From the IMG/VR virus record IMGVR_UViG_3300045988_039442, positions 1 through 44,652 of that record: DNA of 44,652 nt, one strand, 5' to 3'. Under the pieces are notes generated by a model. That model was not told where the DNA came from. It ran no database searches and was given only the letters and a program-made list of their open reading frames with translations. This document shows, piece by piece, positions 9,286 to 37,155 of this stretch (positions are counted from its first letter, which is position 1; each line of letters starts with the position of its first letter). Made by a program: the position numbers and the translations under genes. Source of the DNA: a virus (Duplodnaviria; Heunggongvirae; Uroviricota; Caudoviricetes).

Positions 9286-9317
9286 CGAAAAAGGCCCCGT
9301 TATGGGGCCTTAGTTTT
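9286..9317. terminator. bidirectional hairpin terminator between convergent portal and DpdA-like genes
   Basis: AAGGCCCC-GTTAT-GGGGCCTT with flanking A and T tracts. Confidence 0.65.
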
Positions 9318-10034
9318 AAGTAGCCATTCCTCTACTGTAGGGGGTTTAACCATCTCTATGGTATGCCTCATTATGGCAGTTCGATGCAGTTTGTCCGTTA
9401 TGTCAGGTAGTCTTGCCTTAGTTTTCGGCACATTTATAGCTACGTTTGTGCTGTCAGCGCTGTCGAAAGGGTAGCGGCTCAAGGCCCGCCCATCCAGCAT
9501 TCTAAGGCCGTGGAGTTTTACATCCAATTTCCTGTTTCTATAAACCGCATTAAATGCCTGGTCCATTCTTTTCCCCCATGACTTAGACCGTATGGCCCTG
9601 TGCGGTCCGCAGCAACCTATCGCTACCCGATTGAACCCACGGCACAGTTTTACCAGTCTTCTTATACTTTCATCGCTGTGCCACACCGGGACCGCCTTAG
9701 ACCTTAACCAATCGGGGACAGTTTCTATTAATGCGTCGTTCTCTTCCTCCGTGCCCTCTATAACGTCCGGTATTATGAACCACTCAATACGACTGAACCA
9801 CTCTCCGACAAAATCATAATATCCTGCCCAGTGGGCGCTCCAGTCTATGTTGTCCGGTGCTTTCTTCCACGTCGAAAAAGCTCCGTTGTCCAACACTAAT
9901 TTACATCTCGTGGCGGCTATCTTTCGTATTTGATCGGGGCGGGCGTATGATACCAGAGCACCACCACCTCGGTACAATGCTTCTATAAGCTCATCCCCAC
10001 CCCAAATAGGGCCTCCGTGGTAATGCACTGTCAT
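9300..10034 (-). CDS. tRNA-guanine transglycosylase/DpdA-like protein (candidate 7-deazaguanine DNA base-exchange enzyme)
   Basis: LVLDNGAFS segment resembles the TGT catalytic-Asp region (LTDSGGFQ) and HGLRMLD a second Asp region; no CxCxxC zinc motif seen; assigned from memory of the fold, not by search. Confidence 0.4.
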   Translation of the reverse strand: MTVHYHGGPIWGGDELIEALYRGGGALVSYARPDQIRKIAATRCKLVLDNGAFSTWKKAPDNIDWSAHWAGYYDFVGEWFSRIEWFIIPDVIEGTEEENDALIETVPDWLRSKAVPVWHSDESIRRLVKLCRGFNRVAIGCCGPHRAIRSKSWGKRMDQAFNAVYRNRKLDVKLHGLRMLDGRALSRYPFDSADSTNVAINVPKTKARLPDITDKLHRTAIMRHTIEMVKPPTVEEWLLKTKAP

Positions 10035-10495
10035 TTAATTTTCCTCAGCAAGAACGACCATAAAGCTCCGCCAAAAACCTTAGCCACGAATTGGCCCAGT
10101 ACGACTAGCGGCATGAAGGCCCCGAAAGCTATTAGTGGGAAAATAAAAGAGTCCACCGCCGAGGCCGCTGTATTACTTACGTTTGACTTAACCAACCACT
10201 TTTTATTGATCAGTGCCTGGTAGACAACGGCATCTATGGCGGCTGCAAAAGCGAAGGCAACAACGCTTGCCATAGCAATCTTGCCGGTTGCCGGGTTTAT
10301 GGAGAAACTTATAATGCCAGTTACTAGTATCAGTATGAATATTTTTTGTACACCAATCCTCTCGTGCAACTTATCTCTTATTACGAAATCAAGCCCAATA
10401 AGTAGAAAGGCGTTTACCGGTGTCGCCCACGGACCAAACACAGTTACCGAAAAGTTAGCGGCGCATATCGCCGCTACGTAAATTGCATACATCAT
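10031..10495 (-). CDS. small polytopic membrane protein, possibly YhhQ/COG1738-type queuosine-precursor transporter
   Basis: Four to five TM helices; stop overlaps the start of the downstream DpdA-like gene (ATGA); SNVSNTAASAVDSFIFPLIAF resembles a DUF165 motif as I recall it. Confidence 0.35.
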   Translation of the reverse strand: MMYAIYVAAICAANFSVTVFGPWATPVNAFLLIGLDFVIRDKLHERIGVQKIFILILVTGIISFSINPATGKIAMASVVAFAFAAAIDAVVYQALINKKWLVKSNVSNTAASAVDSFIFPLIAFGAFMPLVVLGQFVAKVFGGALWSFLLRKIK

Positions 10496-19596: not shown

Positions 19597-19759
19597 CTCC
19601 TTCAATTGCATAGGGTAGAAGTTAACGAGTTCTCCTTTATCCCGAAGCCTTGAATACTCATCTAATGCCTCTTCCAGGCTACTTACGGCTTAGATATCAC
19701 TCCATTCGTCCCATTCTTTGTCGTATACGCTGATTACAAATATTGTCCCCATTGTACAT

Positions 19760-20329
19760 TCACGCATTTGGATAAATCCCCAGGATTCTATTAGCAATCG
19801 CAGCCGCTGTTAATGTAATCTCGCCTGGGATGACCACAACGTCATGGCATACCGCACCATCAATATCGTACAGGTAACCACGACTATCCCCGTCAAACGT
19901 ATAGCCGTCTCTGTGCAAGCGAACGATTCTTACATCATGCCCCGCGGCGACGATGGGGGCCACTTCACTGGCGAATCCACCGTCGGACACTACAAAAACT
20001 TCGTCGCCGTCGGACAAGTTTCCGGCAAGATACTTACCGAAATAATCGTCACCGAATACCGGTTTAATGAATTGCTCAGAAATGGCAATCATGAACTGAC
20101 GACGTGACAACCCATTAAGAAAACCCTCTGGCTTTTCTTTCCGCGCCCTGTCGTCGTAGCCGTCGAGAAACTCGTGGTAAGTATCCGGGCCTAACGCTGC
20201 AAGAGCGATATTGAACATTGGATTCTTGAAACTGGTAGTCGCATTCGCAAAGCCCATTTCTACCAGCGCCATAGCGAGTGTGTCTTTTCCGCAGCCCGCA
20301 GGACCATTAAGAATGATTACCTTAGCCAT
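19760..20329 (-). CDS. P-loop nucleotide kinase, dNMP-kinase-like (T4 gp1-like GKDT Walker A)
   Basis: N-terminal VIILNGPAGCGKDT; small (189 aa); last gene of the leftward operon. Confidence 0.5.
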   Translation of the reverse strand: MAKVIILNGPAGCGKDTLAMALVEMGFANATTSFKNPMFNIALAALGPDTYHEFLDGYDDRARKEKPEGFLNGLSRRQFMIAISEQFIKPVFGDDYFGKYLAGNLSDGDEVFVVSDGGFASEVAPIVAAGHDVRIVRLHRDGYTFDGDSRGYLYDIDGAVCHDVVVIPGEITLTAAAIANRILGIYPNA

Positions 20330-20814
20330 TATTTATTGCTCCCGTGTGGTTTTAAGTGAGTAGAGTTCCCGTTACAGTCGTATTCAGTAACCGCGTGCGT
20401 CGTGATTCCTAAGCCACGGAAATGCTTTATCACCGCTGGGGAGTCATCGAACGCACACAAGATTCTTTCCAGCCCGATAGCGCGCAACACCTCTTCTTTA
20501 ATTACGATGTCTTTTCTGTTGTCGTGTTTGCTGCGCATGATTAGCTGATAAAATTCGACGCGGTGGCGCTGCAACCACATTCTGGTTTCTTTTTCTGCGT
20601 CATCACTGCGACCGGTTAAAATAATAGCGGCGTATCGCCGATTAAGGGCGTTACACAGCTCGATATTATCTCTAATTGGTTCATCATCTTTGCACGCCAT
20701 GTTAAATGGCTTCCACGCCCATGTTTCGTTGTAGTTATCTTTCGGCAGAAGGTGCAAACGATGTGTCCCATCCGCCAATGTCCCGTCTAAATCGAAAATT
20801 ACAATATCTTTCAT
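20329..20814 (-). CDS. HAD-family phosphatase resembling the polynucleotide kinase 3'-phosphatase domain
   Basis: DLDGTL motif at the N-terminus; the RKDIVIKEEV ... FDDSPAVI segment resembles the T4 Pnk phosphatase domain from memory. Confidence 0.5.
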   Translation of the reverse strand: MKDIVIFDLDGTLADGTHRLHLLPKDNYNETWAWKPFNMACKDDEPIRDNIELCNALNRRYAAIILTGRSDDAEKETRMWLQRHRVEFYQLIMRSKHDNRKDIVIKEEVLRAIGLERILCAFDDSPAVIKHFRGLGITTHAVTEYDCNGNSTHLKPHGSNK

Positions 20815-21941
20815 CCCAACATCTCCGGTGAAATAGTTAAACGTGCAACCTCGCCGTATTCGGCGCTATAAGTAATTACATTTGCACTGCGTCCCGACAT
20901 CCACCCACCGCGAGAAGCATATGCATCTTTCGCCGCGAGAGTGCGATGCTGCTCAACAATCATGTTACGGCTTTCTACAATCTTCTGGTGGTGCAGGTGC
21001 CCAACGTGGGCGTAGCTATAAACGCTCTCGCCGAACGCTTTGCGGAACTTAGCAATCATAACCGGTTCGATAGCGTCAAATCGCGCCTTATGCCCGTGGT
21101 GAAAGAACAATGTCGTTTTGCCGTGTTGCACCATCTTGTAAACATCCGGCGATGTATCCACTGTCACTCGGCTGTCGTTTGAGTATAAAGTCGTGAACAT
21201 TTCCGCCAGCCATACAGACCCTACAGGGTCGTGATTTCCTTGCACGATAAGCAAGCGAACAGATTTATGCTTAACCAGTGCCATATCAACAACACGGCGA
21301 ACCATACGAATCATGTAGCGGACAAGTTTCTGGTAGCGAGTGTCTGCGTCCAACACATGACGCGACTCAGGGGTAACGGCATCAAGACTATCGAAGTGTG
21401 CGAAGTCCCCCAGCAGGTTAATAACCCCAGTTCCAGCATCTGGTGCTTTCTGAAACGCCGCATCGAACCAACGGGAGAACAAGTCTTCAGCAATCTTCAT
21501 ATCCCAGTCGTCGCCGCTCTCGTCGGCCCAGGCCAGCATACCGAGATGGAAATCAGATACAGTGTAAAGATTGAGTAGTTTATCGTCACGTTTGGTGCGA
21601 GCGGCTTTAACAGGTGCAACCGGCGTAATCTCCGACTTCATACCTTCGATTACGGCTTTCATTAATTCTACCTGACGTTCGGCATCGGTGTCGGTCTTAA
21701 CCCATTGCAACTTAGTATTGCCGAACTCGTCCACCAGAGACGACGTGCCTTTAATCTTGTAGCCGTCCGGAACAAGGTGGCTAACGTCCAGCCCGTGGCC
21801 TACGCCTTTCTTTGCCAGCTTCGCTTTACGGATTCTGATAACGCGGTCTGAGACGCCGTATTTACGAGCTATATCGATATTCCTCACACCGGCGTTCAAT
21901 TCTTCCTGTAACTGCTCGTCGGTTATTTTCTTCCGGGCCAT
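20811..21941 (-). CDS. calcineurin-like metallophosphoesterase with N-terminal HTH domain
   Basis: Motifs SDFHLG, GDFAHF, GNHD, HHGH and GHLHH; RBS ACGAGGAAG. Confidence 0.6.
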   Translation of the reverse strand: MARKKITDEQLQEELNAGVRNIDIARKYGVSDRVIRIRKAKLAKKGVGHGLDVSHLVPDGYKIKGTSSLVDEFGNTKLQWVKTDTDAERQVELMKAVIEGMKSEITPVAPVKAARTKRDDKLLNLYTVSDFHLGMLAWADESGDDWDMKIAEDLFSRWFDAAFQKAPDAGTGVINLLGDFAHFDSLDAVTPESRHVLDADTRYQKLVRYMIRMVRRVVDMALVKHKSVRLLIVQGNHDPVGSVWLAEMFTTLYSNDSRVTVDTSPDVYKMVQHGKTTLFFHHGHKARFDAIEPVMIAKFRKAFGESVYSYAHVGHLHHQKIVESRNMIVEQHRTLAAKDAYASRGGWMSGRSANVITYSAEYGEVARLTISPEMLG

Positions 21942-22006
21942 GCTTACTTCCTCGTGTTTAGGATTTGTCCTATTTAACCATAGTGCATTCCTTTAAATAA
22001 AGGCGA

Positions 22007-22333
22007 CTATTTACTTTCCGCGCCTATCGCCCACCCGGTCATTACCATTTGCAGACGGGTAGCCGTTAGTAGGCTGTAAAACGCGTCTCCGTTTTTCTCT
22101 ACCGAACGTATTACCGTGTATGTTACGGCTTGAGGAGGTAAGCCCGATTTACCAACCTCTACGGCAGCCTCACACTCGCCAACTGTAGAGTCCTTAAATG
22201 CCTTTACGATAGTAGTGTCGGCTTTCTCAAGCACGCCAGAAGTCATAAGAACAGATTCACTAAATACCTGTTCGCACGGGGACCCAAAAGTAGCAAAAGA
22301 CATAAACCCCAGAGCCAATACTAATTTACGCAT
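22007..22333 (-). CDS. small secreted/periplasmic protein with signal peptide
   Basis: N-terminal MRKLVLALGFMSFATFG signal-like segment; first gene after the conserved promoter. Confidence 0.5.
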   Translation of the reverse strand: MRKLVLALGFMSFATFGSPCEQVFSESVLMTSGVLEKADTTIVKAFKDSTVGECEAAVEVGKSGLPPQAVTYTVIRSVEKNGDAFYSLLTATRLQMVMTGWAIGAESK

Positions 22334-29528: not shown

Positions 29529-31367
29529 ATGTCAAGCGGATGCGGTGACGTTTTAAGCCTGGCGGATTTACAAACCGCCAAGAAACACCAGATTTTCGAA
29601 GCCGAGGTTATTACTGGTAAATCCGGAGGAGTCGCCGGCGGTGATAATATTGATTACGCGACCAACCAGGTTACAGGGCAGACACAGAAGACGCTCCCCG
29701 CCGTGTTGCGGGATGCATGTTTTTCTCCTGTATCTTGGGACTTTTCTACTGGCGGCACGCTAACCGTTAATGATCGGGACAAAGTGGTTTATGACCCGGT
29801 GGGCAAAACGTGGTACTCGTACGCGGGTACGTTGCCGGTTGTAGTCCCCGCAGCATTTAACCCGGTCGGTAACGCGGACTGGAAACCTCAGACAGACCAT
29901 GATTTACGCGAAGAATTATCCGAAATTGACGGAGAAAAATTAGTAGGAACTTGCCCCGATGTGGCTACACTGCGGACGATAGAACCAACCGTATCTAACC
30001 AAGTTATCACGGTACGAGGCTACTACTCTGACACGCCCGGGCTTGGGGGAGGAACGTTTATAGCCTTTTCCAGTTCTGAGGCAGATGACGGCGTGAATAT
30101 TTTTGTTACCCCCGGCGGTAAGCGCTGGAAGAGAACAGGAAGTCACATCGATATTCCGGTAGAGAACGGGGGCATGATGGCATCTCGTACACCGGAGCAA
30201 AACAGTGAAGCTCTTGAGCGTATTCATTCTTGCCTTCCACAGACTGGAGGTAAATTAAGATTTTCAGATTTTTATGATATTAAGTATGGAGCTATATGTC
30301 CGCCACGCGTCATGTGGGAGGGTATTGGTAGAGACTCATGCGGCTTACGTAAAACAGGTAACGATGTTAAAACCGTTCCAGACCGTATGTGGCAAGGCGC
30401 ACCCCATAGCTTCTCCCTGGATTTTATTGCTGCTATTGACATGGATAGTAGCGTGGCAGGCGACCTTACCGGAAACTTTAGCCGTTCCGGCTGTATTACT
30501 GGTATGAGTTTGATTGGTGCCGCTACTGCAAAAAATGCCTATGGTATTTATAGTGCAATAAGCTATATGGTTCGATTAGAAGACCTGTATATAGAAAACG
30601 TGATGACAGGGTACCGAACAAGTGATAGCTGGCTTCAGGTGTTTGATTCACTTATCATTAAAGATGTTCAAGATGGCATTTCTGTAGACACCGGCGGCAC
30701 AACTTTTAACTTAAATAACGTTTATGTCAGGAATGTATCCCGGTGGGCATATAAGTTTACTAACATTACTTATTCCAATCTTAAAGGTTGTGCAACGGAT
30801 TATGTAACTGGTTCCGCTTATGTGTTCTTAGGGTGCACTAGTGTAGTTATGGACGGCTGCGGGGCAGAAGAGATTCATGGTAGCCTCTTTGAGTGTAATC
30901 AATCTCGCTTATCTATTAATGCCTTTCGTAGTGTTAATCTCACAGATACGGGAAGTGTTGCCTGCATCTTTACTCAATGTGCAGTCACCATTACTGGTAG
31001 CTACCTGCCGGAGTTTGCTGGTTCACCTACTAGCAAATACTGGCAAGTTAATGACACTACCATTAACCTGATTAATACCGTTGCACCGGCAGCCTCCCGT
31101 GTGCTGTGGGCAGCAGGTGTTTCGCAGTTTAACTACTCAGACTGGGGAGGTAATTATACAATCTGGGGTACGTACACATGGACAGCTGCTGGTTACAAAA
31201 TTAACGGCATTGCGCATGTATACGGGGATGCTCCCCCTGATTCTTCAGTCACCCAATTCGGCAATGGTGCGCGATGGGAGCTTCTGACACCAGTTGCTGG
31301 GCGACCTTATAAATGGGTCCATGTTGGCTCTGGTGTGTGGAAGGTTGCTGGTAATGTAACTAGCTAA
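29529..31367 (+). CDS. tail fibre/tailspike with predicted right-handed beta-helix C-terminal domain
   Basis: 612 aa; the C-terminal part is rich in Gly/Ser/Thr/Asn/Tyr repeats typical of beta-helix receptor-binding or depolymerase domains; AT-richer from about 30.2 kb. Confidence 0.55.
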   Translation: MSSGCGDVLSLADLQTAKKHQIFEAEVITGKSGGVAGGDNIDYATNQVTGQTQKTLPAVLRDACFSPVSWDFSTGGTLTVNDRDKVVYDPVGKTWYSYAGTLPVVVPAAFNPVGNADWKPQTDHDLREELSEIDGEKLVGTCPDVATLRTIEPTVSNQVITVRGYYSDTPGLGGGTFIAFSSSEADDGVNIFVTPGGKRWKRTGSHIDIPVENGGMMASRTPEQNSEALERIHSCLPQTGGKLRFSDFYDIKYGAICPPRVMWEGIGRDSCGLRKTGNDVKTVPDRMWQGAPHSFSLDFIAAIDMDSSVAGDLTGNFSRSGCITGMSLIGAATAKNAYGIYSAISYMVRLEDLYIENVMTGYRTSDSWLQVFDSLIIKDVQDGISVDTGGTTFNLNNVYVRNVSRWAYKFTNITYSNLKGCATDYVTGSAYVFLGCTSVVMDGCGAEEIHGSLFECNQSRLSINAFRSVNLTDTGSVACIFTQCAVTITGSYLPEFAGSPTSKYWQVNDTTINLINTVAPAASRVLWAAGVSQFNYSDWGGNYTIWGTYTWTAAGYKINGIAHVYGDAPPDSSVTQFGNGARWELLTPVAGRPYKWVHVGSGVWKVAGNVTS

Positions 31368-31396
31368 AACTAAGGCCCCAAACGGGGCCTTTTCTC
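31368..31396. terminator. bidirectional hairpin terminator between the convergent structural and replication blocks
   Basis: AAGGCCCC-AAAC-GGGGCCTT followed by TTCT. Confidence 0.65.
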
Positions 31397-31533
31397 TACT
31401 CTCCTGATAACTTCTCCAGTATAAACGCCAGTTGCGCATTAGCGGCGTCTCTCTGTTGCCGTAGTCGTAGAACCTCTTCTTCGAGTTCCTTGATACGTTT
31501 TTGCAATGCCGGAATCGGGGCCATGATGTTCAT
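31396..31533 (-). CDS. hypothetical small coiled-coil protein (45 aa)
   Basis: ATGA overlap with the upstream gene; below the ORF-track cut-off. Confidence 0.3.
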   Translation of the reverse strand: MNIMAPIPALQKRIKELEEEVLRLRQQRDAANAQLAFILEKLSGE

Positions 31534-31709
31534 TTCTTAAAATCCTTATACAATTCTGCGACACCGGCAGCCAACAGCATCATTCCCGCGCCCACCATCA
31601 CACCCGCATCAAAGGTTTTTCCGTCCAAGATACCGCACAATAATAATACCGACCCAGGCCCCACTCGGCAAAATAGCCACAAAACTATTAATGCTGTATT
31701 AAATTTCAT
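31530..31709 (-). CDS. small membrane protein (about 59 aa)
   Basis: ATGA overlap with the helicase stop; two hydrophobic segments. Confidence 0.35.
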   Translation of the reverse strand: MKFNTALIVLWLFCRVGPGSVLLLCGILDGKTFDAGVMVGAGMMLLAAGVAELYKDFKK

Positions 31710-33130
31710 TTCTTACCTCGTCTCTTCATGTAATTAAGCAACTCTTCCTGCACCGATTTCTTCTCGTCTGTACGCGCGGCAACAACCTCGTCCAGCGTGT
31801 CTTTAGCGACGATGTGGTAGAGGAACACCGGTCGTTCGTGGCCTGCCTGTTTCTGGCGGACCGGGCCTATACGTTCGACGACCTGCAAATAGTGCTCAAG
31901 GTTCCAGCCCTGCGAAATAAACGCCAGATGATGCCCGCCGTCCTGTAAATTCAAACCATGACCGGCTGACGCAGGATGTACGCATAGGATTTCGATTTCA
32001 CCACGGTTCCACGCTTCCATCTGCTTATTACCCTTAGCGCCTTTAGCAAACGCCTGTGCTTGCGGGAATCGCTTAAGGATGCGCTCCAGTTCGTGCTTGA
32101 ACTGATAGGCCACCAGCAACGGCGCGCCCTGTAACTCCTCAACAATGGACTCAAGCGCATCCAGTTTCGTATCGTGCACTTTCTCCCAGTCTTTCGTTGC
32201 TTCGCCATCCGGTCCTGACACGTACACGGCACCAGAAGCAATCTGCAGGCACTTCGACGTCTTCGCTGCCGCGTTAGCCGCTTCAACTTCTCCGCTCTCC
32301 AGTTCCGCGAATAACTTTTCCTCCATATCTATGTACGCCTGACGCGCTTTCTTCGGCAGGTCGATTTCAACTGGCACAATAATCGGAGCTTCGCAACCAA
32401 ACCACTCGGCGGCGTCAATAGTCAGGCTGATGTCCTTCATCTTCTGGTGAATTTCATTATCTGCTCCCGGGCGTGCGTGGTACTCCCGCGCCATAGCCGA
32501 TTTGCCTTTTTGCACCGAGTTAAACCAGCGGTCGGTGAACGCCGTGTATGAAGAACCGAGGCGCTCGCCTGCGTCTATAAACCAGTTCTGACCCCACAAG
32601 TCCTTGAGGCCGTTCGGTGACGGTGTTCCCGTAAGGTTTATCAGCCTCTTAACATTTCTAAATGCTACTTTACTAAGCGCCTTTGCCCTCTTGCTCCCGC
32701 CTGAACGGCTACGGAATGACTTAAGCTTCGTGCTTTCATCGTTAACTATCACAGTAAAGGGCCAGTCATCTACTCCGTAATAGTCGATAAGCCACTCTAT
32801 AACCTCATAGTTAATACAAATTACATTAGCGTCTGACTCCAGCGCAGCGATGCGGCGCTTTTCTGAACCGGTCGCGTCTATGACGCGCAGACACGGGAAA
32901 CCCCACTTAGTTTGTTCCGCGGGCCATGTACCTGACGCAACGCGCAGCGGGGCGAGTATTAACACGCGGTCGTCATCATTAAGTTGGCCGTTGCGGAACA
33001 GTCGGTTTAATGCCCACAGTACGCTGCCAGTCTTCCCGGCGCCCATGCTCGCCCATATGTTGCAGCGATTGTGCCGCAACATGAACGAGGTCATGAGCTT
33101 CTGGTATTCGCGCCTTTGAAACTTAGACAT
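31706..33130 (-). CDS. SNF2/DEAD-like superfamily 2 helicase
   Basis: Walker A GAGKTGS with downstream helicase motifs; ATG at 33130 chosen 2 nt after the methyltransferase stop (ORF track extends to 33448). Confidence 0.75.
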   Translation of the reverse strand: MSKFQRREYQKLMTSFMLRHNRCNIWASMGAGKTGSVLWALNRLFRNGQLNDDDRVLILAPLRVASGTWPAEQTKWGFPCLRVIDATGSEKRRIAALESDANVICINYEVIEWLIDYYGVDDWPFTVIVNDESTKLKSFRSRSGGSKRAKALSKVAFRNVKRLINLTGTPSPNGLKDLWGQNWFIDAGERLGSSYTAFTDRWFNSVQKGKSAMAREYHARPGADNEIHQKMKDISLTIDAAEWFGCEAPIIVPVEIDLPKKARQAYIDMEEKLFAELESGEVEAANAAAKTSKCLQIASGAVYVSGPDGEATKDWEKVHDTKLDALESIVEELQGAPLLVAYQFKHELERILKRFPQAQAFAKGAKGNKQMEAWNRGEIEILCVHPASAGHGLNLQDGGHHLAFISQGWNLEHYLQVVERIGPVRQKQAGHERPVFLYHIVAKDTLDEVVAARTDEKKSVQEELLNYMKRRGKK

Positions 33131-33806
33131 GATTAGCCTCGTAAACTGCTTTTGCGAAACCGCGCGGAGTAAGGCTGCGGATTGTTTTTGTTCTGGCGCT
33201 CTTTCCGCCGAGTTTAGCCCAACCAGGGTTATCTCCACTATCCGCGCTAACCACGGCAACGTCTGGCATAACAAACCCATTGCCCGTCCACAGGCACGTC
33301 TTTTTAACATACGCATCTCGCGCTGGAATAACATCCGGGAACATTGGATGTGCGTCGCCTTCCGGTAAATATCCACCGTATTCGTACGGATTGAACACGT
33401 AGTCTGGCTTACGCCATAGAGACGAAAGAACGCTAACAGGGTTTTCAATCATATAAGGTACGTTGTATTTTTTAGCCAGACGCGCCGCCACTTTGCATGT
33501 AATTACGGCCTCTACCTGAAAAGTTGGGTTATTCTTCCGCTTCGTTTCAAAATGCGCCGCACCGCTAACGGCTAAATCTGTGCACGGAGGGAACGCAAAA
33601 ATAATATCCGGCGCAACGCCGAAGTCGAATCTATTATCAATCCACGCGTTTATATAATGGATATTTTCATGTACAACTTTTGCACCCAATCGTGCGTAGT
33701 CGCCGTGGTTAGCGCCGTCGTAGTTGAAACAATAGCAAGTATGGCCTGCTTCCGCCCACGGTTGGGCCATAAGGCCCGAACCGTCAAACAAGGACCAGAC
33801 AATCAT
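33123..33806 (-). CDS. short DNA (cytosine-5)-methyltransferase-like protein
   Basis: Motif I LFDGSG, motif IV FPPC, motif VI ENPV, C-terminal GNG; only 227 aa, so the target-recognition region is minimal. Confidence 0.55.
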   Translation of the reverse strand: MIVWSLFDGSGLMAQPWAEAGHTCYCFNYDGANHGDYARLGAKVVHENIHYINAWIDNRFDFGVAPDIIFAFPPCTDLAVSGAAHFETKRKNNPTFQVEAVITCKVAARLAKKYNVPYMIENPVSVLSSLWRKPDYVFNPYEYGGYLPEGDAHPMFPDVIPARDAYVKKTCLWTGNGFVMPDVAVVSADSGDNPGWAKLGGKSARTKTIRSLTPRGFAKAVYEANHV

Positions 33807-33994
33807 TTCGCCACCAGAACTAACTCTTTACGCCCGAACGCCGTAACGTTACCGGTTACATCTTCGATAACCAGTTTACCGTTCGACTCGACGTACACCG
33901 TATCAACGGCGACAGGACGACGTGTCTTAACGTTGAAAATCATGTCACCCGGTACGATGTCACGTGCTGGTTTGCGGTCATATTCGTGTTTCAT
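33803..33994 (-). CDS. hypothetical protein
   Basis: ORF track entry; stop overlaps the methyltransferase start. Confidence 0.45.
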   Translation of the reverse strand: MKHEYDRKPARDIVPGDMIFNVKTRRPVAVDTVYVESNGKLVIEDVTGNVTAFGRKELVLVAK

Positions 33995-34033
33995 TTCTCA
34001 ATTCCTTATAGTTAAGGCCCCGAAGGGCCTGTA

Positions 34034-34288
34034 TTAGTTAGATAATTCGGCTTGAACTTGCTTAATAAGTTCTCCAGCCGTTGTGAAGTCTACAGACAGC
34101 CCTTTAGCGACGTCTTCCGCAAGCACTTTGCGGCCAACTGACCCGAAACCCAGGATACGGTTTACTTCCGAAACCTTCATAGACCATGAGTAATTAACTG
34201 ACGCCCCTGTGTATTTACCGATGCGAACAGATGAATCGATTGAACAGAGAATCATGGTGTTTACTGACAGTTGAAGTTCGATAGTCAT
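34034..34288 (-). CDS. hypothetical protein
   Basis: ORF track entry; co-oriented with the replication block. Confidence 0.45.
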   Translation of the reverse strand: MTIELQLSVNTMILCSIDSSVRIGKYTGASVNYSWSMKVSEVNRILGFGSVGRKVLAEDVAKGLSVDFTTAGELIKQVQAELSN

Positions 34289-34307
34289 TTCATAATTCCT
34301 TATATTG

Positions 34308-34604
34308 TTAGGGTATGTGTTTACTATAATAGTCCGCTATTAGGGTGTCAACCTGTTTAAACGAACCAACGACAAAAACATTCGCGCCGCGTTTACGCAT
34401 CCGCTCGTGCTCGCGTAGCTGGTGCGGGTCGGGCTTCGTGTTTTCGTCTTTCTTAACCTCGACGAACCAGATGATGCCGTCGGGGAGAATTACCAGCAGG
34501 TCGGGAGCACCGGAACGTCCTTCGTAGGAGAGCTTGCGAACGAGGCCCCCCAGGGCCTCGAACCTCTCTTTCGCGTATTTCTGCACGCGACCCTCTTTAG
34601 TCAT
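34308..34604 (-). CDS. VRR-NUC domain nuclease
   Basis: PDLLVILPDG ... WFVEVK is a PD-(D/E)XK core typical of VRR-NUC; ATG at 34604 within ORF 34308..34784. Confidence 0.6.
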   Translation of the reverse strand: MTKEGRVQKYAKERFEALGGLVRKLSYEGRSGAPDLLVILPDGIIWFVEVKKDENTKPDPHQLREHERMRKRGANVFVVGSFKQVDTLIADYYSKHIP

Positions 34605-34753
34605 GACCGCAGAATCCAGGTAATGAAAGCCCCTCCTAGAACGGCAACACCGACAAACTGAAAGAACAGGCCATAACAGAACATCGCGGCTATTCCCGCA
34701 CCGAGCAACAGTGCGAGCATGGTTACGACTGCCCCAAATACAAACATCATCAT
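34601..34753 (-). CDS. small membrane protein (50 aa)
   Basis: ATGA overlap with the VRR-NUC start; hydrophobic throughout. Confidence 0.35.
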   Translation of the reverse strand: MMMFVFGAVVTMLALLLGAGIAAMFCYGLFFQFVGVAVLGGAFITWILRS

Positions 34754-34835
34754 AATACGCACCCCTCACGTTTTGTATGCTCAATACCGCAGCGCGGACA
34801 GATTCGGCAGTCTTCTTCGTAGAACCAGTAAATTT

Positions 34836-34967
34836 TCATTCCAGCACCCACAGATAAATTGCGATGAACATACCCAATACGGCGACCATCATGCCGTATT
34901 GGCCCTCGTGACAGTACACACCGGCGGCAAATCCCGCCAGTACCGCGATAATCAGTTTACTTAGCAT
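34836..34967 (-). CDS. small membrane protein (43 aa)
   Basis: Start overlaps the DNA polymerase stop; followed by a 28-aa CxxC-CxxC ORF (34756-34839). Confidence 0.3.
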   Translation of the reverse strand: MLSKLIIAVLAGFAAGVYCHEGQYGMMVAVLGMFIAIYLWVLE

Positions 34968-37155
34968 AGCGTTTTAACTCCTGCCCTTCCGCTACAAGAG
35001 GGAAGCCTTCTGCCCACTCTGGCAACGCGCACATTAATTTCTCCAGTTCGGCCACCGTGTACTCAGGGGTATCTGGAGTTTCGCATACCAGTTCATCGTG
35101 TACCGAAAGCACGATAGGATATCCGCCACGCTCAACGTTAAGCATCGCATACGCCAGTAAATCACGGCACAGCGCCTGGACAATGTTTTCACATGCTTTA
35201 CCGCCGTGGGTGTATAAGGTAGTCCATTGGCGGGTTAACTGGTTTTCGCCCTGATACTTGATTCGCACATTCGTGTTTACCCGTCCGTCTTCGTCTGTTT
35301 CTTTTGTCACGCTAACGCCGATTCCAGGGTACGAAAGGATGCGGCCTGACGGCAACTCCATACACAACCACCAACCAGGAACCTTCCTACCGGATGAATC
35401 GGTTTCTACTGTTCTCCAGATTCGGATAGCGCGCTCGCCATTCTTGCGCAGATGCGCCCCCGCCCAAAATTCACGACCAGGATTTCTTACAGCGGCTAAA
35501 ATTCCGTCTTTAAGGTCGCGCCAGAACGCTACTGTTTCCGGGTGCGACTCGCGCCACATGCGCTTGATAGCGTCGCAGGTACGCCACACTTTCTTATCCA
35601 GAATATACGACGGTCGGTCGTCCTTTTCACCAGGATGCGGCGGTCGCTTTGCTTCCTGGATACGCGCCCACTCATAACCCCGTGCGGTAGCGGCCCATAT
35701 GTGGTCAGGGAATGTACCATCCATTGTTTTAGCCATCTCAATAAGGTCGAGGCCTAAGTTTTTAGCGAACGTAACGAACGCTCCGACGCCACCCTCATAG
35801 CCGAGGCCCAGTTCGCAGGCCTTACCTATCTGTCTGATTTCCTTGAAGTTTTTCTTAATATCGTCGGGATCCATGCCAAACATCTTACCCGCGGTTACGC
35901 AATAAATATCCAGTCCGGCGCGGAACGTATCAAGCGCGGTTTCTTCACCAGCCAGCCACGCAAGCCCACGACCCTCAACGTTAGAGTAATCGGCGACGAC
36001 AAATTTATGCCCAGCTTCCGGTATGATGCAGCTACGAACCGTCGATGCCGTTAGCTTGGCTACGTCGAAACGGCGATGAGCACGGCCCTTAAGTAGCGCA
36101 GAAATGCCTTTATCCAGTTCATCATCGTGATAGTACCCGCGCGCGAGGTTCTGCGGCTGGAAGCCTTTACCCGCCCATCGCAGAGTCCGTTTTGCCCCGC
36201 CGTACTGTAAACAACCACGACGGCGGTCGTCAGACGAGCGGCCTAACAGCAGCGGGTTATATTTCGTTGATGCCGTGGACGCGGCACCGAGGCGCATTTC
36301 GATAATCGTGCGGGCGTCGTCCGGTAAATCATCATCCGCCAGCAGGTCATTCAGCGTCGACTTCTGCGCATTGTGGATGCGGTGCGCGGGTGCGAGTTCA
36401 CGCAGAATCGGCAGAAAGTCCTTACCAGTAAGCGAGCCGCCGTATTTTAGTTGGGCTTCTTCCTGTAACTGTGCCTTGTGCTTCTCCACGGCTTCAATCG
36501 CGGCTTCTGCCAGCGCTACGTCAACCTTAAACCCACGGTCGTTGATTAATTGGTCAAGTTCAAGTACACGGTCCTCAAACTCCGAGTTACCCCAACGCGG
36601 CAGCTTATGAAAGACTTCACGCATCGCAGTAATGTCGCTCACGGCGTACTTGATGAATAACGCCCACTCGTCTGGGTGCGTTTCTGCGGTGTAGCGGCGA
36701 ATTTTGTAGTTCTTCGGTGTCGGTTTAGAAAAACGCTGAATCAGCGCTTTACCTCGTTTGTCTTTCGCATTGTCGGCGGACACGCCAAGCACTTCACACA
36801 GCGCATCAAGTGACCCCGGCAACGCGTGACGAAACGCCCGAATCATAGTGTCGATGGTATTTCTTGGTTTGATATCCACCCCCCAACAGTGCTTCATAAC
36901 TAGTCTGTCGAACATTAAAAAGTTATGGCCTACGATTCTCATACGTCCGCGCATAACATTACGGAGCGCAACGCGGAGGTTTATCGGCATTACTGGTTCG
37001 GAAGTGCAGTCCCATACTTCTACAGGCCCGTCATCAATGGCGTATGTGCATATTATAATCTCAGTTGTTGCGTGTTCCGCGTACGCGTATGACCCTACTT
37101 TCTTTAGGTCAGCTTCAGAGAATGTTTCAGTATCCAGATACAATAAATTAGGCAT
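34957..37155 (-). CDS. DNA polymerase I-like (family A) with 3'-5' exonuclease domain
   Basis: Exo motif LDTETF; polymerase motif A DYSNVEGR, motif B RQIGKACELGLGYEGG, motif C VHDELV. Confidence 0.9.
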   Translation of the reverse strand: MPNLLYLDTETFSEADLKKVGSYAYAEHATTEIIICTYAIDDGPVEVWDCTSEPVMPINLRVALRNVMRGRMRIVGHNFLMFDRLVMKHCWGVDIKPRNTIDTMIRAFRHALPGSLDALCEVLGVSADNAKDKRGKALIQRFSKPTPKNYKIRRYTAETHPDEWALFIKYAVSDITAMREVFHKLPRWGNSEFEDRVLELDQLINDRGFKVDVALAEAAIEAVEKHKAQLQEEAQLKYGGSLTGKDFLPILRELAPAHRIHNAQKSTLNDLLADDDLPDDARTIIEMRLGAASTASTKYNPLLLGRSSDDRRRGCLQYGGAKRTLRWAGKGFQPQNLARGYYHDDELDKGISALLKGRAHRRFDVAKLTASTVRSCIIPEAGHKFVVADYSNVEGRGLAWLAGEETALDTFRAGLDIYCVTAGKMFGMDPDDIKKNFKEIRQIGKACELGLGYEGGVGAFVTFAKNLGLDLIEMAKTMDGTFPDHIWAATARGYEWARIQEAKRPPHPGEKDDRPSYILDKKVWRTCDAIKRMWRESHPETVAFWRDLKDGILAAVRNPGREFWAGAHLRKNGERAIRIWRTVETDSSGRKVPGWWLCMELPSGRILSYPGIGVSVTKETDEDGRVNTNVRIKYQGENQLTRQWTTLYTHGGKACENIVQALCRDLLAYAMLNVERGGYPIVLSVHDELVCETPDTPEYTVAELEKLMCALPEWAEGFPLVAEGQELKRYAK

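What the first reader, a model, noticed from the sequence alone, without database searches (positions are those of the whole stretch)
33123..33806. Unusually short C5-cytosine methyltransferase-like protein coupled to the SNF2 helicase
Motifs I (FDGSG), IV (PPC) and VI (ENPV) of C5-cytosine methyltransferases are present, but the protein is only 227 aa, so a normal target-recognition domain cannot fit. Its stop lies 2 nt from the helicase start. It could be a minimal orphan methyltransferase for anti-restriction, or an enzyme acting on a different substrate. Together with the DpdA-like and kinase operons this suggests the phage modifies its DNA in more than one way.
Basis: partly seen in the sequence, partly recalled or inferred. 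Interest (0 to 1): 0.5.

Follow-up and report, generated by a model that had tools for sequence, protein, structure and literature searches.

The report
Short phage cytosine-C5 DNA methyltransferase
This gene belongs to a common, already annotated family of very small phage DNA cytosine-5 methyltransferases; a 61%-identical relative has been shown to make 5-methylcytosine, so the finding is real but ordinary.

The parts
33123..33806 (-). Gene for the 227-aa short C5-cytosine DNA methyltransferase (PHROG 757 family)
33774..33788 (-). Motif I, F7-D-G-S-G11 (SAM-binding loop after strand beta1)
   Evidence: Read from the sequence. Pfam PF00145 aligns residues 3-102 to profile positions 3-98.
33582..33590 (-). 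Motif IV, P73-P74-C75 (catalytic cysteine nucleophile)
   Evidence: C75 is invariant in 76/76 diverse relatives. It corresponds to C82 of the K42/KarlJaspers Dcm.
33435..33446 (-). Motif VI, E121-N-P-V124 (glutamate that contacts the flipped cytosine)
   Evidence: E121 and P123 are invariant in 76/76. E121 corresponds to E128 of the K42 Dcm. hhalign pairs it with the ENV of E. coli Dcm.
33300..33311 (-). Motif VIII-like Y166-V-K168-K169, in place of the canonical Q-x-R-x-R
   Evidence: Y166 76/76 and K168 75/76. K168/K169 correspond to K175/K176, which were mutated in the inactive K42 Dcm. The assignment to motif VIII is inferred.
33192..33272 (-). Hypervariable segment, residues 179-205: a miniature target-recognition region of the 'DNPGW' cassette type
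   Evidence: Its length is 19-39 aa across 76 relatives, and it has the lowest conservation and pLDDT of the C-terminal half. The cassette has been swapped: P0036 is 93.5% identical in residues 1-153 but 58% in 154-208. hz69 carries the GYSxQH type.
33132..33182 (-). Motif IX/X-like I209-R-S-L-T-P-R-G-F-A...N225 and the C-terminal helix
   Evidence: R210 74/76, P214 72/76, G216 74/76. Helix 215-225 appears in the model. The assignment to these motifs is inferred.
33123..33130 (-). 8-nt overlap ATGTCTAA between the MTase stop and the helicase start (translational coupling)
   Evidence: The same arrangement is annotated in hz69.
31706..33130 (-). SNF2-family helicase, 474 aa, next gene downstream
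   Evidence: Pfam SNF2-rel_dom E=1.2e-11, plus sub-threshold Helicase_C, 20.5 bits against a cut-off of 23.5
33803..33994 (-). 63-aa ORF of unknown function (phrog_4879); its stop overlaps the MTase ATG (ATGA)
   Evidence: It is not conserved next to the MTase in other genera.
34034..34288 (-). 84-aa ORF of unknown function (phrog_11050), probably the first gene of the sub-operon
34323..34351 (-). Sigma-70-like promoter candidate (TTGACA-17-TATAGT, 11/12) upstream of the 84-aa ORF
   Evidence: This is a consensus match only, and the number of such sites in the region is no higher than in shuffles.
31372..31391 (-). Terminator-like hairpin (8 bp, 6 GC) at the end of the leftward operon, convergent with the tailspike gene
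   Evidence: consensus match only

Best explanation
The gene encodes an autonomous, SAM-dependent DNA cytosine-C5 methyltransferase of the short phage family PHROG 757, often annotated 'Dcm-like'.

Inferred mechanism, by analogy with C5-MTases:
- Motif I (F7-D-G-S-G11) and the helix after R210-S-L-T-P-R-G hold SAM.
- The target cytosine is flipped out, and Cys75 (PPC) attacks C6.
- Glu121 (ENPV) and Lys168/Lys169 hold the base, and the methyl group goes to C5.
- The roughly 27-residue variable segment (179-205) replaces the usual 80-150-residue TRD. Together with the conserved 139-169 insert it reads a short DNA motif.

The gene is expressed with the replication genes as ORF84-ORF63-MTase-SNF2 helicase, with overlapping stop and start codons. 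Replicating phage DNA, and bystander host DNA, would therefore be methylated. The likely benefit is protection from 5mC-sensitive restriction enzymes. A known cost is that the methylation can trigger retron Ec86 (Eco1).

Shown directly: the ORF, its conservation, the fold and the homology. Shown only for a 61%-identical homologue: 5mC formation and the retron trigger. Inferred: the catalytic roles of individual residues, the TRD assignment, methylation of the phage genome and the anti-restriction benefit. The target sequence is unknown. CCWGG is only an assumption taken from the 'Dcm' name.
For: - PHROG 757 'DNA methyltransferase', E=2.1e-87 over residues 1-226.
- 1,529 phage records hold a homologue, 1,473 of them at 80% coverage or more. 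Many are annotated as cytosine methyltransferase.
- The same gene is annotated 'DNA cytosine methyltransferase' in the Kagunavirus relatives hz69, SZH-1 and phiWAO78-1.
- It is 61% identical (E=1e-107) to KarlJaspers Bas06 gp55. That gene is 711 bp, and its C82/E128/K175/K176 align with C75/E121/K168/K169 here.
- The K42 orthologue of that protein gave high 5mC on msDNA by LC-MS. A C82A/E128A/K175A/K176A mutant did not, and escaper phages had lost the gene (bioRxiv 10.1101/2023.08.16.553469).
- The AlphaFold model has pLDDT 88.2 and pTM 0.88.
- C75, E121, P123, Y166 and W173 are invariant in 76 diverse relatives.
- dN/dS is 0.16.
- The variable segment behaves like a TRD and is exchanged as a cassette.
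- KP36 encodes a homologue (H67), and its DNA resisted EcoRII (PMC3620542). This is consistent with methylation by the phage enzyme but does not show it.
Against: - Curated models do not recognise the protein. PF00145 gives 15.5 bits (cut-off 22, E=0.012), and only 2 of 76 relatives reach E<=0.01. NCBIfam gives nothing. PDB sequence searches find no methyltransferase relative (the profile search, gives only a sub-threshold DNMT2 match, E=0.69).
- Canonical motif VIII (QxRxR) and separate motifs IX and X are absent.
- No assay exists for this protein itself, or for phage genomic DNA of this genus.
- BASEL Kagunavirus isolates are highly sensitive to the RM systems tested, so a protective effect is not evident for those systems.
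- The K42 experiments were done in dcm+ MG1655 and measured total 5mC, so they do not define the target site.
Confidence: 0.85

Rival explanations
1. The enzyme is a C5-transferase that uses another cofactor or installs another group. One example is carboxymethylation from Cx-SAM, as done by phage CmoX. Another is a handle for further hypermodification.
Confidence: 0.03
2. The real substrate is not double-stranded phage DNA. It could be RNA or tRNA (as for DNMT2), or single-stranded or structured DNA, with the tiny variable region reading shape rather than sequence.
Against: DNA C5-MTases rank above DNMT2. The gene lies in DNA replication modules in every lineage examined. The methylated part of msDNA is a double-stranded stem, and mutating its CCTGG abolished defence. 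DNMT3A/B read CpG with a similarly small TRD; this rests on established knowledge and was not tested here.
Confidence: 0.05
3. It is a catalytically dead or regulatory methyltransferase-like protein, comparable to DNMT3L, that serves the adjacent helicase or the replication machinery.
For: It is translationally coupled to the SNF2 helicase. Helicases of several families lie next to the gene in some lineages. BFVD holds a 1,397-aa 'Helicase/UvrB' protein with a domain of this family. A few distant relatives have lost the Cys or the Glu (P0172, P0260).
Against: The catalytic Cys and Glu are invariant in 76/76 relatives and present here. The homologue's effect required those residues. In 20 of 30 locus clusters no helicase relative was detected nearby.
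Confidence: 0.04

Closest known systems
Phage K42 / KarlJaspers (Bas06 gp55) 'Dcm-like C5 cytosine methyltransferase', the trigger of retron Ec86
   Same: Same family and architecture: 227 against 236 aa, 61% identity over the full length. Same catalytic residues (C/E/KK) and the same 'DNPGW' type of variable cassette. Both sit in an early/replication gene block upstream of a helicase.
   Different: Different phage family (Drexlerviridae against Guernseyvirinae/Kagunavirus). In KarlJaspers two small ORFs separate the gene from a different helicase. No experiment has been done on the window's protein.
DNMT3A/DNMT3B catalytic domain (best structural match)
   Different: Only 13-17% identity. DNMT3 domains are about 285 aa, work as DNMT3L-assisted tetramers and read CpG. 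No evolutionary closeness is shown beyond the shared fold.
E. coli Dcm / M.EcoRII-type CCWGG methyltransferases
   Same: Same chemistry (5mC). The family borrows the name 'Dcm', and the K42 study assumed CCWGG.
   Different: E. coli Dcm is 472 aa with a large TRD. The profile comparison is not significant (hhalign E=0.13, probability 0.5%) and aligns only motifs IV-VI. There is no vsr partner. CCWGG specificity is unproven for this family.
Canonical type II C5-MTases M.HhaI and M.HaeIII (Pfam PF00145)
   Different: About 100 residues shorter. Below the Pfam cut-off. Y-x-K-K replaces Q-x-R-x-R. Motifs IX and X appear compressed into one stretch. The variable segment is 19-39 aa instead of a TRD domain.
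CmoX, DNA cytosine C5-carboxymethyltransferase of Synechococcus phage S-B43
   Different: 333 aa, encoded next to CmoA and CmoY, uses Cx-SAM and targets GC. The homologue of the window's protein makes 5mC.

Membership tests
C5-cytosine DNA methyltransferases (fold / Pfam PF00145) | Motif I FxGxG SAM-binding loop | tested here: met
   F7-D-G9-S-G11 is present and aligned by PF00145. In distant relatives the middle Gly is often replaced (consensus F-D-x-T-G).
C5-cytosine DNA methyltransferases (fold / Pfam PF00145) | Motif IV Pro-Cys with the catalytic cysteine | tested here: met
   P73-P74-C75; Cys in 76/76.
C5-cytosine DNA methyltransferases (fold / Pfam PF00145) | Motif VI E-N-V glutamate | tested here: met
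   E121-N-P-V; Glu in 76/76. Aligned to the ENV of E. coli Dcm.
C5-cytosine DNA methyltransferases (fold / Pfam PF00145) | Motif VIII Q-x-R-x-R | tested here: not met
   The corresponding strand reads D-A-Y166-V-K168-K169-T. Lysines replace the arginines. A functional equivalent is suggested by the K175A/K176A changes in the inactive K42 mutant.
C5-cytosine DNA methyltransferases (fold / Pfam PF00145) | A separate target-recognition domain (usually 80 aa or more) between motifs VIII and IX | tested here: not met
   Only a 27-residue variable segment here, 19-39 in relatives.
C5-cytosine DNA methyltransferases (fold / Pfam PF00145) | Score above the Pfam gathering threshold | tested here: not met
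   15.5 bits against 22. Only 2 of 76 relatives reach E<=0.01.
C5-cytosine DNA methyltransferases (fold / Pfam PF00145) | Three-dimensional fold of C5-MTases beyond the generic Rossmann core | tested here: met
C5-cytosine DNA methyltransferases (fold / Pfam PF00145) | Formation of 5-methylcytosine in DNA from SAM | not testable with these tools
   Reported by LC-MS for the K42 orthologue of the 61%-identical KarlJaspers protein. Not measured for this protein.
Short phage 'Dcm-like' methyltransferases (PHROG 757 / K42 Dcm family) | Full-length homology and a length of 200-260 aa | tested here: met
   PHROG 757 E=2.1e-87. 61% identity to Bas06 gp55. Relatives are nearly all 200-260 aa.
Short phage 'Dcm-like' methyltransferases (PHROG 757 / K42 Dcm family) | Residues equivalent to C82, E128, K175 and K176 | tested here: met
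   C75, E121, K168 and K169.
E. coli Dcm orthologues (CCWGG-specific) | Significant sequence similarity to Dcm | tested here: not met
   hhalign E=0.13, probability 0.5%.
E. coli Dcm orthologues (CCWGG-specific) | Methylation of the inner C of CCWGG | not testable with these tools
   The K42 study assumed it and did not map it. The window holds 92 CCWGG sites, which is neither avoidance nor enrichment.
CmoX-type C5-carboxymethyltransferases | Association with CmoA/CmoY and use of Cx-SAM | tested here: inconclusive
   No such genes were seen among the ORFs examined, but the host supplies Cx-SAM. The 5mC measured for the homologue argues against this.

The most novel reading that the evidence does not exclude
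The methyltransferase works physically with the helicase translated from the overlapping gene, so that methylation is coupled to DNA translocation or replication. This would resemble SNF2-coupled DNMT5 and the helicase-methyltransferase fusion proteins of uncultured phages. On this reading the 27-residue cassette alone sets a sequence specificity that is not CCWGG. That would make these the smallest self-contained sequence-specific C5 DNA methyltransferases, with swappable specificity cassettes.
Probability: 0.1. Interest if true: 0.55.

Novelty: new member of a known kind. Interest (0 to 1): 0.2.

Why it matters
For this window it mainly settles an annotation. The phage encodes an orphan cytosine-5 methyltransferase, and also a DpdA-like guanine transglycosylase, so its DNA is probably modified on both C and G.

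More generally, this family is in about 3% of sequenced phages and is invisible to Pfam and NCBIfam. Its target sequence, the way so small a variable segment reads DNA, and its net effect are all unmeasured. The net effect would weigh protection from restriction against triggering retron Ec86 or type IV enzymes. Those questions are modest but tractable.

Tried and rejected
- NCBIfam scan: no hit.
- PDB sequence searches: the single sequence finds no methyltransferase relative. The 76-sequence profile gives only a sub-threshold DNMT2 match, E=0.69.
- Profile comparison with E. coli Dcm: not significant. The name 'Dcm-like' says nothing about orthology or specificity.
- Split-enzyme idea, with a small partner subunit as in M.AquI or M.EcoHK31I: rejected. 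The small ORFs upstream of the gene in five genera share only 9-16% identity.
- Obligatory helicase coupling: rejected as a family trait. The caveat is that only relatives of eight query helicases were searched. L075 has an undetected Walker-A protein next to the gene.
- CCWGG avoidance or enrichment as a clue to specificity: uninformative. There are 92 sites, against 63 expected from a first-order model and 117 from a third-order model.
- The AFDB50 fold library was not available.
- The literature search for 5-methylcytosine in Drexlerviridae returned nothing. Two searches failed on term format.
- The published version of the retron study is cited by many papers but is not held in the library.
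- Model coordinates could not be read, so equivalences for motifs VIII-X and for Arg215 rest on sequence patterns only.

Full report
**Observation**

The ORF at 33123..33806 on the minus strand starts with ATG and encodes 227 aa. Reading the DNA places the motifs as follows:
- F7-D-G-S-G11 at 33774..33788
- P73-P74-C75 at 33582..33590
- E121-N-P-V124 at 33435..33446

The stop codon TAA is at 33125..33123. The ATG of the next gene, MSKFQRREYQ..., is at 33130..33128. The downstream gene is a 474-aa SNF2-family helicase (Pfam SNF2-rel_dom E=1.2e-11). Upstream, the stop of a 63-aa ORF overlaps the MTase ATG (ATGA).

**Where the window comes from**

Bases 31000-35000 are about 90% identical to Kagunavirus genomes (BCH953P1, hz69, SZH-1, phiWAO78-1). 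In hz69 the gene order is the same: DNA polymerase I, small ORFs, VRR-NUC, two small ORFs, "DNA cytosine methyltransferase" (684 bp), "DNA helicase" (1425 bp, 8-nt overlap). It is annotated that way in GenBank. The window's length equals the longest contig that holds the identical protein P0001, so the window is probably a whole contig.

**Family**

- Pfam PF00145 matches only residues 3-102, at 15.5 bits and E=0.012, below the cut-off of 22.
- NCBIfam gives nothing.
- Sequence searches of the PDB find no methyltransferase relative. The profile search gives only a sub-threshold DNMT2 match at E=0.69.
- PHROG 757, "DNA methyltransferase", matches end to end at E=2.1e-87.
- tblastn finds a homologue in 1,529 of 50,697 phage records, 1,473 of them at 80% coverage or more. 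These include Kagunavirus, Jerseyvirus, Dhillonvirus, Drexlerviridae including Webervirus, Vequintavirinae, and records named as Campylobacter or Vibrio phages.
- Against 1.84 billion cluster representatives, 1,294 score E<=1e-3 and 549 score E<=1e-10. Nearly all of the best 150 are 200-260 aa.
- Only 2 of 76 diverse members reach E<=0.01 on PF00145.

This is a large, coherent family of short proteins. Curated domain libraries miss it, but phage annotators already call it a cytosine methyltransferase.

**Experimental anchor**

A preprint on retron Ec86 (bioRxiv 10.1101/2023.08.16.553469) studied phage K42, whose genome is 95.4% identical to KarlJaspers/Bas06.
- All four phage mutants that escaped the retron carried mutations disrupting, or likely to disrupt, a 711-bp "dcm" gene.
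- Expressing that gene was toxic only when Ec86 was present.
- LC-MS showed high 5mC on msDNA with the wild-type gene, and low 5mC with a C82A/E128A/K175A/K176A mutant or an empty vector.

I fetched KarlJaspers. Its gp55 is 711 bp and 236 aa, with C82, E128, K175 and K176 at exactly those positions. It is 61% identical to the window's protein over the full length (E=1e-107). The four residues align with C75, E121, K168 and K169. The function "makes 5mC in DNA" therefore transfers with good confidence.

The specificity does not transfer. The authors assumed CCWGG from the name. They showed only that mutating the CCTGG in the msDNA stem abolished defence, and the host was dcm+. A profile of the family is not significantly similar to E. 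coli Dcm (hhalign E=0.13).

One indirect point comes from my own knowledge and is not a tool result. Expression was not toxic in MG1655 without the retron. MG1655 carries McrA, McrBC and Mrr, so the sites made are probably not RmC-type.

**Structure**

An AlphaFold model built from 54 family sequences is confident (pLDDT 88.2, pTM 0.88).
- Foldseek against the PDB puts DNMT3B/3A, M.HaeIII and the CP-933R prophage methyltransferase on top (E about 1e-5, TM 0.40-0.48).

The margin is moderate, but the ranking is consistent. An hhalign of the family against the DNMT3A catalytic domain aligned motifs I-IV at E=1.6e-4.

**Anatomy and the missing TRD**

In 76 relatives that are 36-59% identical to the query, C75, E121, P123, Y166 and W173 are invariant. 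K168, T170, R210, P214 and G216 are nearly so. The strand that should carry Q-x-R-x-R reads Y-x-K-K. The C-terminus, I-R-S-L-T-P-R-G-F-A-x-A-V, looks like motifs IX and X run together; this is my inference.

Between these two stretches lies the segment 179-205. Its length ranges from 19 to 39 residues, and it has the lowest conservation and pLDDT of the C-terminal half. Among close relatives it comes in two forms:
- "DNPGW", in the window and in KarlJaspers
- "GYSxQH", in hz69 and P0036

Each form is linked to its own version of the preceding FP(D/E)xI...Y-x-KK stretch. P0036 is 93.5% identical to the window's protein in residues 1-153 but only 58% in 154-208. P0039 is 69% and 82% in the same two segments. 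That mosaic is what a swappable specificity module would look like. Against hz69, dN/dS is 0.16.

**Helicase coupling**

- In Kagunavirus the MTase precedes the SNF2 helicase.
- In Dhillonvirus (KarlBarth) a helicase precedes the MTase with a 4-nt overlap.
- In KarlJaspers two small ORFs separate the MTase from a different helicase.
- In Vequintavirinae the MTase precedes an AAA primase-helicase.
- In Webervirus three small ORFs and a DUF3987 protein follow.
- In a Stenotrophomonas phage the neighbours are a kinase and a topoisomerase.

I then took 80 IMG/VR loci holding relatives and grouped them into 30 clusters at 70% identity. A relative of any of eight query helicases lies within 1.5 kb in 8 clusters, farther away in 2, and is undetected in 20. 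One large cluster without a helicase has neighbours resembling a Dam-type methyltransferase and RusA. I judged that from the sequences alone and ran no search on them.

No small neighbouring ORF is conserved across genera. The coupling in the window is ordinary operon packing in a replication module, not a family property. It cannot be fully dismissed, because BFVD contains a 1,397-aa "Helicase/UvrB" protein with a domain of this family (30% identity).

**Operon**

A strong sigma-70-like match (TTGACA-17-TATAGT) lies at 34351..34323. A GC-rich hairpin lies at 31391..31372. Together they bracket ORF84-ORF63-MTase-helicase-two small ORFs. These are consensus matches, no more numerous than in shuffled sequence.

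**Biological role**

Protection from 5mC-sensitive restriction is the standard inference for phage orphan methyltransferases, but it is not shown here. BASEL Kagunavirus isolates are described as highly sensitive to the RM systems tested (PMC11990801).

KP36 DNA has 155 predicted EcoRII sites and was not cut by EcoRII. The authors credited host Dcm because they saw no phage cytosine methyltransferase (PMC3620542). tblastn shows that KP36 does encode a homologue (H67). This fits CCWGG methylation by the phage enzyme but does not prove it.

The window has 92 CCWGG sites, which is neither avoidance nor enrichment. A documented cost of the enzyme is that it triggers retron Ec86.

**Rivals**

- Carboxymethyl transfer as in CmoX is unlikely, because the homologue raised 5mC in cells that contain Cx-SAM.
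- An RNA or non-duplex substrate, or a dead regulatory protein, is unlikely given the invariant catalytic residues, the DNA-MTase ranking and the mutant data.

**Verdict**

It overreaches on the helicase coupling, and the anti-restriction role is unproven. This is a new member of a known and already annotated kind, of low interest. The open questions are its target sequence and how the miniature, exchangeable recognition segment works.

Noticed in passing
window 9300..10495 (- strand): A 244-aa DpdA-like protein lies next to a 154-aa VUT/YhhQ-like membrane protein. The first matches phrog_887 'queuine tRNA-ribosyltransferase' (E=3e-84) and has no Pfam hit. The second matches PF02592 (E=2.5e-9), the family that includes the preQ0 transporter. 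Megablast finds no match to this cassette in any of 50,697 phage records; only the flanking portal-gene end matches. At protein level the DpdA-like gene is 60-66% identical to those of Pectobacterium phage PEAT2 (which also has a VUT neighbour), HK106 and Salmonella phage 7-11. It looks like an inserted 7-deazaguanine module that relies on imported precursor, and it is unusual for this genus.
   Followed up: partly
whole window: GATC is about 13-fold depleted: 11 sites against 143 expected from a first-order model. YGGCCR is about 3-fold depleted: 18 sites against 54-61 expected. CCWGG is not depleted. I did not look for a Dam-like gene in the window.
   Followed up: partly
window 19760..21941 (- strand): Three genes lie in a row: a dNMP kinase-like gene (phrog_139), a PNKP-type HAD phosphatase (PF25109, E=1.8e-18) and a metallophosphatase-like gene (sub-threshold Pfam matches only). 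The kinase-phosphatase stretch searched (19700..20900) is shared at 86-93% nucleotide identity with many Kagunavirus genomes (53 records at 80% coverage or more). It is therefore a genus feature, not special to this phage.
   Followed up: partly
window 33192..33344; L003 (hz69) 21583..22266: Within the genus, the methyltransferase gene is a mosaic. The window carries the 'DNPGW' variable cassette and hz69 the 'GYSxQH' cassette, while the rest of the protein is more than 90% identical. This suggests recombinational exchange of the specificity segment.
   Followed up: yes
BFVD hits A0A6J5SE15_1 (1,397 aa) and A0A6J5NPY6_2 (1,126 aa): Large proteins of uncultured phages carry a domain of this short methyltransferase family (26-30% identity, TM 0.63-0.67). 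One of them is annotated 'Helicase/UvrB, N-terminal'. Their sequences could not be fetched.
   Followed up: no
proteins P0172, P0260, P0233: Some distant relatives have lost the catalytic residues: P0172 reads F-P-E-Y instead of F-P-P-C, and P0260 reads P-P-G and S-N-P. Some carry long low-complexity N-terminal extensions. These may be inactivated or repurposed copies from non-phage sources.
   Followed up: no
Klebsiella phage KP36, JF501022.1 47561..48232 (H67): The 2013 KP36 paper states that the phage has no cytosine methyltransferase and credits host Dcm for the EcoRII resistance of its DNA. The genome does encode a 47%-identical member of this family, annotated 'hypothetical protein'.
   Followed up: partly
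window 31706..33448 (- strand): The mechanical ORF for the helicase runs 106 codons upstream of the real ATG, to a TTG, and so overlaps the methyltransferase gene in another frame. The annotated 474-aa product in relatives starts at the ATG at 33130.
   Followed up: yes
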